NCBI GenBank assembly: GCA_964488475.1 | Contig: CAZAUK010000008.1 | Location: forward strand, 64,554 to 128,553 | From: an uncultured bacterium | GTDB taxonomy: Bacteria > Krumholzibacteriota > Krumholzibacteriia > Krumholzibacteriales > WJIX01 | Reading direction: 5' to 3' | Length of the DNA stretch: 64,000 bases | Shown: positions 6,256-7,641 of the stretch, piece by piece | Numbering within the stretch: position 1 is the first letter of the stretch | Layout of the letters: the number at the start of each line of letters is the position of its first letter | The notes under the pieces: model-generated | The model's database searches: none | Seen by the model: only the letters and a program-made list of their open reading frames with translations | What the model was told of the DNA's origin: nothing | Program-made: the position numbers and the translations under genes

Positions 6256-7641
6256 ATGAAAAGGAACCTTTGTACTGCCCTGGCAGCTCTGTTGATAGCG
6301 ATCTTAGCGGGGCTTACCGCCTGCAGGCAGGACCGCGAATGCCTGACAGTTCTCTTTACCAGTGACGAAATGGGCAGGATAAGGGCCTTTGGTTGAGGCG
6401 GGGCCGCTGAAGGCGGAGTGGCCCGGCGGGCCGCGGCGCTCAAAAAAGAGTTTCAGAAGGATTCAGAGGCGCTTCTTGTCTCCGGGGGCGACTTTTACGC
6501 CAATAGAGGGATACTCGCCATGCACAGGGGGCGCTTTCTGGGTGAGATGATGCTGAAGATGGGATATTCAGCGGTTGCTCCGGGAGAGAACGAGCTGAGA
6601 TACCAGCTCCGGCCGATAATGGAGAGCGTGAGGGAAGGCCTGCCGGTGACCTGCGCGAACATATATAAGCAGGGCGAACCGGTATTCAAGACCTATATCA
6701 TCAAGAAGGTCAGGGGGTGGAAGGTGGGAATATTCGCGCTTTTCGGCGCGGAACTGACCACCGCCACGCCTCTGGAGGTAAAACCCCCCGGCCGGGTCTG
6801 CGCCGATATCGTTAGAAAGCTCAAGGATGAAGAATGCCGCATGATCATTCTCATAGCGCACATGGGAAGCGAGAGGCTCAAGCGGCTGGCTCCGTCCCTC
6901 GAGGGGGTGGATCTGGTAATACGTGGTCACGCTGAAGCCGGTTCCACTGTTTCTGACGGCTGCGCCGACAGATCGATAGAGTCTTTTCAGGATATCGGTG
7001 TGCCGGTGCTGTTCGCCGGTGACCGGGGCAAACTTATAGGGAAGGCGGTGATCTGCGGCGGTCCGGGAGGCCGGTTGGCGATTACTGATACTACCGCCAT
7101 AAGACTGGATACCGACTCTGAAAAAGATCCGGAATTCGCCGGATATCTCAAAGAGTTCGCAGAACTGGAAGGATCCAGGCTCAGGGAGACCAGGACGCGG
7201 GGCTTCATATCCCACGACCGGGATGGAAGGATGAGGGAAAATTTCCTGGGGCCGTCGGTTTGCGGAAGATGCCATTCCGACATAGCGTCGAAATTCTCCT
7301 CTTCCCCCCACCAAGGCGCTTTTGAGAGGATAAGGAGAGTAGCGGACAGGGAGGAGTGCCTGAAATGCCATACTTCCGGGTACGGCCAGTATTCAGGTTA
7401 TGGATCGAAGGAGGGGCCGGGAAGCGAAGAACTTGAAGGCGTGCAGTGTGAAGCCTGTCATGGAAGGGGAACGAGGCACTCCCGGGATGGAAAGTACAGG
7501 GAATCGGCCCGCAATTCCTGTGTTATATGTCATACCAAGACCAGAAGCCCGGGTTTTGAATACGAGGCTTACATGGAAAAGGTCCTCTGTTATATGAGCG
7601 CCGATTCGGTTGAATATAAAGGGGACTGCGGACAGGAGTAG
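6256..7641 (+). pseudogene. Lipoprotein: degenerate 5'-nucleotidase-like metallophosphatase domain fused to a C-terminal tetraheme cytochrome c. Interrupted by in-frame TGA at 6394-6396. Track ORFs 6199..6396 and 6418..7641 share one frame.
   Basis: MKRNLCTALAALLIAILAGLTAC is a lipobox signal peptide. LTVLFTSDEMG, AAEGG...LLVSGGDFY and GYSAVAPGENEL align to UshA motifs LTILHTNDHHG / AAEGGSVLLLSGGD / GYDAMAIGNHEF, but the metal-ligand His residues are replaced. Four CXXCH motifs lie in the C-terminal 130 aa (CGRCH, CLKCH, CEACH, CVICH). The TGA sits between phosphatase motifs I and II. If TGA terminates, the downstream GTG start would leave the cytochrome domain without a signal peptide. Confidence 0.5.

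What the first reader, a model, noticed from the sequence alone, without database searches (positions are those of the whole stretch)
6256..7641. In-frame TGA splits a lipoprotein signal peptide from its metallophosphatase-cytochrome body
Track ORFs 6199..6396 and 6418..7641 are in the same frame, separated only by the TGA at 6394-6396 and 21 nt. Joined, they read MKRNLCTALAALLIAILAGLTAC...LTVLFTSDEMGRIRAFG-*-GGAAEGGVARRAAALKKEF...LLVSGGDFY. That is one continuous 5'-nucleotidase-like domain: motif I before the stop, motif II after it. The downstream part carries four CXXCH haem-binding motifs. Covalent haem attachment occurs in the periplasm, so the downstream part needs the upstream signal peptide to be functional. 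Therefore this is either a genuine nonsense-mutated pseudogene, a sequencing/assembly error, programmed readthrough, or, since this organism uses Sec (see selD), a recoded UGA. No SECIS is evident, only a weak GC-rich stem GGCC-CGGCG-GGCC at 6419-6431 about 25 nt downstream.
Basis: seen in the sequence. Interest (0 to 1): 0.7.

Follow-up and report, generated by a model that had tools for sequence, protein, structure and literature searches.

The report
Selenocysteine codon in UshA-like haem lipoprotein
The "stop" at 6394-6396 is almost certainly a selenocysteine codon inside one intact gene for an exported 5'-nucleotidase-like, four-haem protein of an already catalogued selenoprotein family, so the gene is neither broken nor an assembly error, only split by gene callers.

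Summary
TGA 6394-6396 lies in frame between a lipoprotein signal/first beta-strand (from ATG 6256) and a 5'-nucleotidase-like domain fused to a four-CXXCH cytochrome.

It is a selenocysteine (Sec) codon, for these reasons:
- 28 homologous loci from several phyla carry TGA, never TAA or TAG, at this exact position.
- About 30 other homologues carry Cys (TGC/TGT) there, inside a conserved C-x-C motif.
- All 41 close database homologues are gene calls cut off just after this site.
- A 7-bp hairpin (6418-6434, loop GGC, 28 nt after UGA) meets the published bacterial SECIS model. It is 96% paired, with compensatory changes, across 16 orthologues.
- The window's own selD (19000-20046) also contains an in-frame Sec codon.
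- TGA is otherwise the commonest genuine stop in the window.

The family is known: "UshA-like" selenoprotein, CxU motif, NCBIfam NF041198. The window's protein belongs to a divergent Krumholzibacteriota clade that differs in four ways:
- It scores below the model cutoff (174 vs 275 bits).
- It lacks the first Cys of the motif (A-F-G-U instead of P-C-G-U).
- It has two clade-specific invariant Cys.
- It is followed by a conserved 268-aa partner gene.

Biochemical function is unknown. Interest is low to moderate.

The parts
6256..7641 (+). Complete selenoprotein gene: 461 codons including one UGA = Sec (residue 47), plus TAG stop at 7639-7641
   Evidence: Homologues with TGA or Cys at the same site.
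6256..6324 (+). Lipoprotein-type signal peptide MKRNLCTALAALLIAILAGLTA|C (lipobox L-T-A-C, Cys23)
   Evidence: Read directly from the sequence. Orthologues have equivalent ...AAGC / LIGC / LAGC lipoboxes 17-23 residues after their start. The ATG at 6199 lies inside a possible HU terminator hairpin, so 6256 is preferred (inference).
6394..6396 (+). UGA selenocysteine codon (residue 47), in the motif A-F-G-U-G-G
   Evidence: TGA in 29/29 Sec-type loci including the window. Aligned with the second Cys of C-x-C in about 30 Cys-type homologues.
6418..6434 (+). SECIS-like hairpin GUGGCCC-GGC-GGGCCGC (7 bp, 3-nt loop GGC at 6425-6427), overlapping the codons for V-A-R-R-A-A
   Evidence: Across 16 orthologues the helix is 96% paired, 3 pairs show compensatory changes, and 0/500 shuffles reach the observed covariation. 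An alternative overlapping hairpin (6404-6429, loop GGAGUG) is equally stable in the window but is not conserved.
6343..7149 (+). 5'-nucleotidase-type metallophosphatase-fold domain (residues 30-298) with altered motifs: D37-E-M39 (DxH), G78-D79 (GD), G110-E-N-E113 (GNHE), H202, G224-H225
   Evidence: PDB 5'-nucleotidases; Pfam Metallophos only E = 0.016, below cutoff; column composition.
7243..7575 (+). Cytochrome c554-like tetrahaem domain; CXXCH at 7261-7275, 7357-7371, 7447-7461, 7519-7533
   Evidence: Pfam PF13435, 44.9 bits against a cutoff of 20.8. All four CXXCH plus H352/H408 are invariant or nearly invariant in 22-61 homologues. PDB 1bvb cytochrome c554 is hit.
7643..8449 (+). 268-aa lipoprotein-like ORF of unknown function starting 2 nt after the selenoprotein stop; probable operon partner
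   Evidence: Conserved immediately downstream in Krumholzibacteria loci L001-L007 (30-41% identity, E 1e-15 to 1e-49). No Pfam or NCBIfam hit.
19000..20046 (+). selD (selenophosphate synthetase), itself with an in-frame UGA = Sec at 19048-19050 (S-C-A-G-U-A-S-K); shows the organism decodes UGA as Sec
   Evidence: NCBIfam TIGR00476, 369 bits against a cutoff of 125. Strong hairpin around the UGA, z = -2.9.

Best explanation
6256-7641 is one intact gene in which UGA 6394-6396 is decoded as selenocysteine. SHOWN: the UGA sits in the loop just after the first metallophosphatase motif, at the position where homologues have the second Cys of a conserved C-x-C motif or also have TGA. It is followed at a fixed distance by a conserved hairpin. 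The genome carries a Sec-containing selD. INFERRED from the established bacterial mechanism: SelB bound to Sec-tRNA(Sec) and GTP binds the hairpin at 6418-6434 on the mRNA and delivers Sec when UGA reaches the ribosomal A site. The pre-protein is exported unfolded through the Sec translocon by its lipoprotein signal peptide and is lipidated on Cys23. Four c-type haems are attached in the periplasm. The mature product would be a membrane-anchored periplasmic redox protein: a remodelled 5'-nucleotidase-like domain whose one universally conserved feature is the [C]-x-[C/U] site, connected to a cytochrome c554-like tetrahaem electron-transfer module. The substrate is unknown. Sec most likely acts as the redox or metal-binding catalytic residue (low confidence). 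Without selenium, or if SelB fails, translation stops after 46 residues and no functional product is made.
For: (1) TGA, never TAA/TAG, occurs at the homologous codon in 28 loci plus the window, from Krumholzibacteria, Eiseniibacteriota, Fibrobacterota, Acidobacteriota, Zixibacteria and several deltaproteobacterial lineages. The reading frame and sequence upstream of it are conserved ('VTVLFTGDxxG...PxG-U-G').
(2) About 30 other loci and 9 full-length database proteins have Cys at that column (PCGC/VCGC).
(3) All 41 close database homologues are 254-417 aa gene calls that begin just after the site; none is full length.
(4) Hairpin: 96% of cells are paired, there are compensatory changes at 3 of 8 pairs, 0/500 shuffles reach the observed covariation, and slid controls are at most 52% paired. 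It meets the bSECIS model (3-9 nt loop, 4-16 bp stem, G in the first two loop positions, 16-37 nt from UGA, MFE at or below -7.5) quoted in PMC13188914.
(5) Sec forms fold better than synonymous recodings (mean z -0.82; window -1.72) while Cys forms do not (+0.20); Mann-Whitney p = 7e-6. Local MFE medians are -14.4 vs -9.3 kcal/mol, p = 1e-5. Perfect 7/7 pairing occurs in 15/29 Sec forms vs 1/30 Cys forms, p = 2e-5.
(6) The UGA-to-GGCGG spacing is exactly 15 nt in all 29 Sec forms but 4-6 codons in Cys forms.
(7) selD with its own Sec-UGA is in the window.
(8) TGA terminates 22 of 40 long ORFs in the window, so the code is not reassigned.
(9) The best NCBIfam hit is NF041198 'UshA-like (seleno)protein', E = 4e-51. 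The family is listed as a CxU selenoprotein in PMC2398784, PMC9312934 and PMC13188914.
(10) LptD-HU-gene synteny is shared with the orthologues.
Against: There is no direct evidence of selenium incorporation or of a full-length product. selA, selB and tRNA-Sec are not in the 64-kb window (no tRNA found) and could not be looked for elsewhere in the genome. The hairpin is partly an automatic consequence of the A-R-R-A codons (GCN-CGN-CGN-GCN): with a 6-of-7-pairs criterion, Sec and Cys forms do not differ significantly (p = 0.07-0.15). The window's dinucleotide-shuffle z-score is only -0.96. The group comparisons ignore phylogenetic non-independence. The protein scores below the NF041198 cutoff and lacks the partner Cys of the CxU motif.
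Confidence: 0.93

Rival explanations
1. Nonsense-mutated pseudogene: the TGA is a recent inactivating mutation of a Cys (TGC/TGT) codon.
For: A single-base change from TGC/TGT gives TGA, and Cys is the residue in many homologues.
Against: The same TGA is present in 28 other loci spanning several phyla. Sequence is conserved on both sides. There are no other frame disruptions in 461 codons. All 41 close homologues are cut at the same spot. A conserved hairpin and fixed spacing follow the TGA.
Confidence: 0.01
2. Sequencing or assembly error: the true codon is a sense codon (for example TGC).
For: The source is a metagenome-assembled genome and read-level data were not available.
Against: An identical TGA is present in the Logan assembly of SRR7048220. 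The protein P0001 is reported on 3 contigs. Independent MAGs from unrelated samples all have TGA at this site.
Confidence: 0.01
3. Two genuinely separate genes: a 46-65 aa peptide and a 407-aa cytochrome starting at GTG 6418.
For: Public gene calls annotate it this way (65-aa plus 407-aa ORFs; 'multiheme c-type cytochrome').
Against: The 407-aa product would have no signal peptide although it carries four CXXCH motifs that need periplasmic haem attachment. It would also lack beta-strand 1 and motif I of its fold, which lie upstream of the TGA and align to solved 5'-nucleotidases. Cys-type homologues are single full-length proteins with the signal peptide. GTG 6418 lies inside the conserved hairpin.
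Confidence: 0.02
4. Sec-independent readthrough: UGA is suppressed by a near-cognate tRNA (Trp, Cys or Arg) or a suppressor tRNA, giving a full-length non-seleno protein.
For: UGA is the leakiest stop codon, and Cys at this site would match the homologues.
Against: A conserved SECIS-type hairpin at a fixed distance is present in Sec forms but not in Cys forms. A Sec-dependent selD in the same genome shows that the dedicated machinery exists. The family is curated as a selenoprotein family. Low-efficiency leak would be a poor way to express a conserved enzyme.
Confidence: 0.03

Closest known systems
UshA-like (seleno)protein, NCBIfam NF041198 'UshA_like_PCGU' (the 'COG0737 UshA-like, CxU' selenoprotein family of Zhang/Gladyshev catalogues; PMC2398784, PMC9312934, PMC13188914)
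   Same: The architecture is the same: signal peptide, 5'-nucleotidase-like N-domain, C-terminal tetrahaem c554-like domain. Sec is at the same alignment column, the second position of C-x-[C/U], 5 codons before the conserved GG-x-ARR. It has the same class of SECIS hairpin as the Eiseniibacteriota, Fibrobacterota and Acidobacteriota members. NF041198 is the best NCBIfam hit (E = 4e-51).
   Different: The score is 174 bits against a cutoff of 275 (core members 290-473 bits). The first Cys of P-C-G-U is replaced (A-F-G-U here; P-[AVSY]-G-U in the other Krumholzibacteria), whereas it is present in 48/48 other family members. The clade has invariant C133, and C236 in a loop absent from the rest of the family. 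The clade keeps D37, D79, H202 and H225, which are degenerate elsewhere. It has a clade-specific conserved 268-aa downstream partner.
Periplasmic/ecto 5'-nucleotidases (E. coli UshA, T. thermophilus 2Z1A, CD73, snake-venom 5'-NT) and SoxB
   Same: The N-terminal calcineurin-like metallophosphatase fold is recognisable by sequence (profile E = 3e-39 to 1e-17), including the 'GGVARRA' helix start. Like these enzymes, the protein is exported.
   Different: The DxH His and GNHE Asn-His are replaced. There is no 5_nucleotid_C substrate-binding domain; a tetrahaem cytochrome takes its place. Sec lies in the loop after motif I. Nucleotidase activity is therefore unlikely.
Other exported multihaem selenoproteins (for example ExtKL, NF040886, listed in PMC13188914)
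   Same: These are also c-type cytochromes exported via the Sec pathway that contain a UGA-encoded Sec, mostly in anaerobic sediment or groundwater bacteria.
   Different: No sequence relationship was tested beyond the generic CXXCH domains, and the catalytic domain is different.
E. coli fdhF-type bacterial SECIS
   Same: It is a hairpin in the coding region just 3' of UGA with G-G at the start of a small apical loop, within the 16-37 nt spacing window.
   Different: The loop has 3 nt (GGC) rather than the fdhF loop, there is no evident bulged U, and SelB binding is untested. Within this one protein family two different hairpin registers are used.

Membership tests
Bacterial selenoprotein gene (generic definition) | In-frame UGA aligned with Cys (or Sec) in homologues | tested here: met
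   TGA in 29 loci including the window; Cys in about 30 loci and 9 database proteins at the same column.
Bacterial selenoprotein gene (generic definition) | [quoted passage not shown] 2 legend) | tested here: met
   7-bp stem, loop GGC, 28 nt from UGA, -11.8 to -13.2 kcal/mol. Conserved with covariation. Partly attributable to the A-R-R-A codons.
Bacterial selenoprotein gene (generic definition) | Sec machinery in the genome (selD, selA, selB, tRNA-Sec) | tested here: inconclusive
   selD is present and is itself Sec-containing, which implies that the rest exists. No tRNA in the window.
Bacterial selenoprotein gene (generic definition) | Selenium actually incorporated; full-length product made | not testable with these tools
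   Needs 75Se labelling or mass spectrometry.
NCBIfam NF041198 UshA_like_PCGU (equivalog) | HMM score at or above the curated cutoff (275 bits) | tested here: not met
   Window 174.2 bits. Krumholzibacteria L001 199.5; L059 249; L011 269; L010 290; L015 353; L062 473.
NCBIfam NF041198 UshA_like_PCGU (equivalog) | P-C-G-U/C motif (CxU) | tested here: not met
   The window reads A-F-G-U. The first Cys is absent in 9/9 Krumholzibacteria sequences and present in 48/48 others. The second position (U/C) is present in 57/57.
NCBIfam NF041198 UshA_like_PCGU (equivalog) | Architecture: signal peptide + UshA-like N-domain + C-terminal multihaem domain | tested here: met
   The C-terminal stretch 281-437 matches profile positions 354-519 of 519.
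5'-nucleotidase / UshA (COG0737) | Metallophosphatase N-domain fold | tested here: met
   Profile against PDB 5'-nucleotidases E = 3e-39. The single sequence gives E = 1.5e-9 over residues 30-298.
5'-nucleotidase / UshA (COG0737) | Canonical dimetal ligands and catalytic dyad (DxH, GD, GNH[DE], H, GH) | tested here: not met
   D-E-M replaces DxH and G-E-N-E replaces GNHE. D79, H202 and H225 are kept. Pfam Metallophos scores only 16.1 bits against a cutoff of 21.5.
5'-nucleotidase / UshA (COG0737) | C-terminal 5'-nucleotidase substrate-binding domain (PF02872) | tested here: not met
   No PF02872 hit; the C-terminus is PF13435 cytochrome c554-like.
Multihaem cytochrome c (c554-like, PF13435) | Pfam score above the gathering threshold, with CXXCH motifs and distal His conserved | tested here: met
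   44.9 bits against 20.8. Four CXXCH and H352 are invariant and H408 nearly invariant across homologues.

The most novel reading that the evidence does not exclude
The Krumholzibacteriota proteins may be a functionally distinct subfamily in which the Sec site has been rewired. The usual partner Cys of the CxU motif is gone (probably a secondary loss, judged from two rough NJ trees). Two new clade-invariant cysteines appear: C133, and C236 in a loop directly after metal motif V. Four ancestral metallophosphatase metal ligands are retained, unlike in the rest of the family. A conserved 268-aa lipoprotein partner is co-transcribed. This could mean a Sec-containing metal centre or a Sec-Cys redox pair of new geometry, fed by four haems: an uncharacterised periplasmic oxidoreductase type.
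Probability: 0.3. Interest if true: 0.45.

Novelty: new variant of a known kind. Interest (0 to 1): 0.3.

Why it matters
The main value is for annotation. In this phylum the gene is systematically split in public records into a tiny ORF plus a signal-less 'multiheme cytochrome' or 'hypothetical protein'. The curated selenoprotein model does not reach this clade, so Krumholzibacteriota selenoproteomes and periplasmic redox inventories are under-counted. A lower cutoff or a sister HMM would fix this.

There is also a biological point. The family, a degenerate 5'-nucleotidase fold whose only universally conserved N-domain feature is a [C]-x-[C/U] site linked to four haems, has no known function. 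A clade that keeps Sec but has discarded the neighbouring Cys constrains the possible chemistry: Sec cannot work here only through a selenenylsulfide with that Cys. The window also records a Sec-containing SelD and so Sec usage in Krumholzibacteriota, for which no paper was found in the searchable library.

Tried and rejected
- Rfam, gathering thresholds on the whole window and permissive E-values on 6370-6480: only meaningless weak hits. No bacterial SECIS family matched, so Rfam is uninformative here.
- ARAGORN found no tRNA or tRNA-Sec in the window.
- Dinucleotide-shuffle z-score of the 67 nt after UGA is only -0.96. A single-sequence fold is not decisive in this GC-rich stretch, so I moved to comparative tests.
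- The alternative hairpin with loop GGAGUG (6404-6429) is slightly more stable in the window, but only 73% paired with no covariation in orthologues. I rejected it as the conserved element for this clade, although the deltaproteobacterial members use a hairpin in that register.
- A 6-of-7-pairs criterion for hairpin A does not separate Sec from Cys forms (p = 0.07-0.15), because A-R-R-A codons are intrinsically palindromic. This is reported as a caveat.
- The search for related loci with the broad alignment A1 failed because no conserved stretch was found. It worked with the closer alignment A2.
No model was obtained, so distances between Sec, C133/C236 and the metal ligands could not be measured.
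- My first test of the downstream gene used a wrong frame (no hits). I corrected this, and the partner is conserved.
- Global UGA reassignment (code 4/25) was rejected: TGA ends 22 of 40 long ORFs and the homologous residue is Cys, not Gly or Trp.
- Literature searches for a characterised function of this fusion, or for Sec use in Krumholzibacteriota, returned nothing.
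Full report
**1. Observation**

ORF 6199..6396 and ORF 6418..7641 share a frame and are separated by TGA 6394-6396 plus 21 stop-free nucleotides.

Starting from ATG 6256, the joined reading frame is 461 codons long. It contains the following parts.
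- A lipoprotein-type signal peptide, MKRNLCTALAALLIAILAGLTA|C.
- The first strand and motif I of a 5'-nucleotidase-like fold (LTVLFTSDEMG).
- The TGA.
- GGAAEGGVARRAA...LLVSGGDFY (motif II), then the rest of the fold.
- Four CXXCH motifs.

The start at 6256 is preferred over 6199. Orthologues start 17-23 residues before their lipobox Cys, and 6199 lies inside a possible terminator hairpin of the upstream HU gene.

**2. What the protein is**

- Pfam finds a cytochrome c554-like domain (PF13435, 44.9 bits) and only a sub-threshold Metallophos match.
- A profile of the family hits the N-terminal metallophosphatase domain of solved 5'-nucleotidases at E = 3e-39, SoxB at 1e-17, and cytochrome c554 (1bvb) for the C-terminus.
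- The single-sequence alignment to snake-venom and T. thermophilus 5'-nucleotidases runs straight across the TGA (query 30-298).
- The best NCBIfam hit is NF041198 'UshA_like_PCGU, UshA-like (seleno)protein' at E = 4e-51, but with 174 bits against a cutoff of 275.
- That family ('COG0737 UshA-like', motif CxU) is listed in the selenoprotein catalogues PMC2398784, PMC9312934 and PMC13188914.

**3. Comparative test of the TGA**

A search of the 5.8-billion-protein collection gave 41 close homologues besides the window's own ORF (37-55% identity). The few that carry a source name are labelled Krumholzibacteriota MAGs. All are 254-417 aa and begin just after the TGA position. More distant homologues are full length and read PCGC, VCNC or ICHC there.

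I fetched 80 genomic loci and translated upstream of each match.
- 28 loci have an in-frame stop at exactly this column, and it is TGA in every case.
- These loci come from Krumholzibacteria (L001-L009), Eiseniibacteriota, Fibrobacterota, Acidobacteriota, Zixibacteria, Syntrophaceae, Thermodesulfobacteriota and others.
- About 30 further loci (Latescibacterota, Poribacteria, Planctomycetota and others) have TGC or TGT at this column.
- The upstream peptide (signal peptide plus 'VTVLFTGDxxG..PxG') is conserved in frame.
- Synteny LptD-HU-gene is shared with L001-L012.

This excludes a pseudogene, an assembly error and two independent genes. The same TGA is also present in the Logan assembly of run SRR7048220.

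**4. SECIS**

All 29 Sec-type sequences align without gaps. UGA is followed by 15 nt and then by GGCGG, the Gly-Gly codons. In Cys-type homologues this spacing varies from 4 to 6 codons.

In the window and 15 relatives the codons for V/L-A-R-R-A-A/T/G form GUGGCCC-GGC-GGGCCGC.
- Over 8 pairs, 96% of cells are paired.
- Three pairs show compensatory changes (GC/CG/UA/UG).
- 0 of 500 shuffles reach the observed covariation, and slid controls are at most 52% paired.
- In the window this is 6418-6434, 7 bp, loop GGC, 28 nt after UGA, -11.8 to -13.2 kcal/mol.
- It fulfils all four constraints of the published bSECIS model (PMC13188914).

The other 13 Sec forms, mostly deltaproteobacterial, use a different register, CUUGGC-GGUCUG-GCCAGG, with the loop on the Gly-Gly codons. 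A hairpin in that register is possible in the window, but it is not conserved in this clade.

Threshold-free controls separate Sec forms from Cys forms.
- Against synonymous recodings, Sec forms are over-structured (mean z -0.82; 27 of 29 negative; window -1.72). Cys forms are not (+0.20). Mann-Whitney p = 7e-6.
- Local MFE medians are -14.4 vs -9.3 kcal/mol, p = 1e-5.
- Perfect 7/7 pairing occurs in 15/29 Sec forms vs 1/30 Cys forms.

Three caveats apply. A-R-R-A codons are intrinsically semi-palindromic, so a looser criterion does not discriminate. The sequences are phylogenetically related. The window's plain shuffle z-score is weak. The hairpin is therefore supporting evidence. The TGA/Cys pattern is the decisive evidence.

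**5. Sec capacity of the organism**

The window encodes SelD (19000-20046; TIGR00476, 369 bits). It has its own in-frame TGA at the canonical active-site position (S-C-A-G-U-A-S-K) and a strong local hairpin. A Sec-dependent SelD implies a working Sec-insertion system.

TGA is otherwise the commonest true stop in the window (22 of 40 long ORFs), so the genetic code is standard. A scan for other TGA-bridged ORFs found only these two convincing cases. selA, selB and tRNA-Sec are not in the window.

**6. Mechanism**

*Shown.* One gene, with UGA at a Cys/Sec-equivalent column, a conserved downstream hairpin, an N-terminal lipoprotein signal and four haem-binding motifs.

*Inferred from established knowledge.*
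- SelB with Sec-tRNA(Sec) bound to the hairpin inserts Sec at codon 47.
- The protein is exported through the Sec pathway and lipidated at Cys23.
- Haems are attached in the periplasm. This is why the part after the UGA cannot function without the part before it.

*Function.*
- Across 57 family members the canonical metallophosphatase ligands are degenerate. Outside the Krumholz clade, D37 is Asp in 20 of 48, D79 in 15 of 48, and H202 and H225 are His in 12 of 48 each.
- The second position of the motif is C/U in 57 of 57, and the first Cys is present in 48 of 48 non-Krumholz members.
- The [C]-x-[C/U] site, not a phosphoesterase dimetal centre, is therefore the conserved functional element. 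It is coupled to a tetrahaem electron-transfer module.
- A periplasmic redox enzyme of unknown substrate is the best reading. This step is inference with low confidence.

**7. How the window's protein differs from the catalogued family**

- It and the eight Krumholzibacteria orthologues in the residue-conservation alignment lack the first Cys (A/V/S/F; window A-F-G-U).
- They have invariant C133 (3 of 48 elsewhere) and invariant C236 and D238 in a loop after motif V that the other members lack.
- They retain D37, D79, H202 and H225.
- They score 174-200 bits, against 249-473 for other members.
- They are followed, 2 nt after the stop, by a conserved 268-aa lipoprotein-like gene with no family assignment.

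Two rough NJ trees, one rooted with 5'-nucleotidases, place the clade nested among CGU lineages next to L012. Lack of the Cys is therefore probably a loss.

**8. Verdict**

The finding is real, and it resolves to a selenocysteine codon in a divergent member of a known, functionally uncharacterised selenoprotein family. It is not a pseudogene, an assembly error or two genes. A selenoprotein specialist would not be surprised by the recoding itself. The clade-specific changes and the systematic mis-annotation in public records are of modest interest.

Noticed in passing
window 19000-20046 (+), TGA at 19048-19050: selD is itself a selenoprotein (S-C-A-G-U-A-S-K). An 11-bp hairpin (about 19043-19068) contains the UGA in its 5' arm, which does not fit the 16-37 nt bSECIS spacing. 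A second hairpin follows at about 19074-19105.
   Followed up: partly
window 7643-8449 (+): A 268-aa lipoprotein-like ORF starts 2 nt after the selenoprotein stop. It has no Pfam or NCBIfam family and is conserved immediately downstream in Krumholzibacteria loci L001-L007 (30-41% identity). It is a likely functional partner of unknown role.
   Followed up: partly
window residues C133 (6652-6654) and C236 (6961-6963) of the selenoprotein: These two cysteines are invariant in the 9 Krumholz-clade sequences aligned (3/48 and 0/48 elsewhere). C236 sits in a clade-specific loop right after metal motif V. They are possible replacements for the missing CxU cysteine.
   Followed up: partly
L040 about 4033-4090 (Acidobacteriota MAG CAZMRF010000032.1): A Cys-type homologue (T-C-G-C) still carries a perfect 7/7 hairpin of the Sec-type class (CUGGCCC-GCA-GGGCCGG). 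This may be a recent Sec-to-Cys conversion.
   Followed up: no
L002 (DATKWS010000226.1, labelled 'Patescibacteria group bacterium'): The contig carries the LptD-HU-selenoprotein-partner synteny of Krumholzibacteria at 44-55% identity. It is probably a mis-binned or mis-labelled contig.
   Followed up: no
window 6184-6222: A possible intrinsic terminator of the HU gene (AAAGGAGCAA...TTGCTCCTTT followed by a T-run). The simple terminator scan missed it because of its large loop. It contains the ATG at 6199 that the ORF finder used.
   Followed up: no
alignment A3 (29 Sec-type loci), columns 15-42: Within this one protein family two mutually exclusive SECIS hairpin registers are used: the loop lies on the Arg-Arg codons in one and on the Gly-Gly codons in the other. 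The UGA-to-GGCGG distance is fixed at 15 nt in both. Sec and Cys forms are interleaved in the tree.
   Followed up: partly
window 8629-8871 and 8905-9345 (+): Two small Cys-rich (zinc-ribbon-like) ORFs are conserved near the orthologous loci in L001, L003-L005, L007, L011 and L012. Their function is unknown.
   Followed up: no
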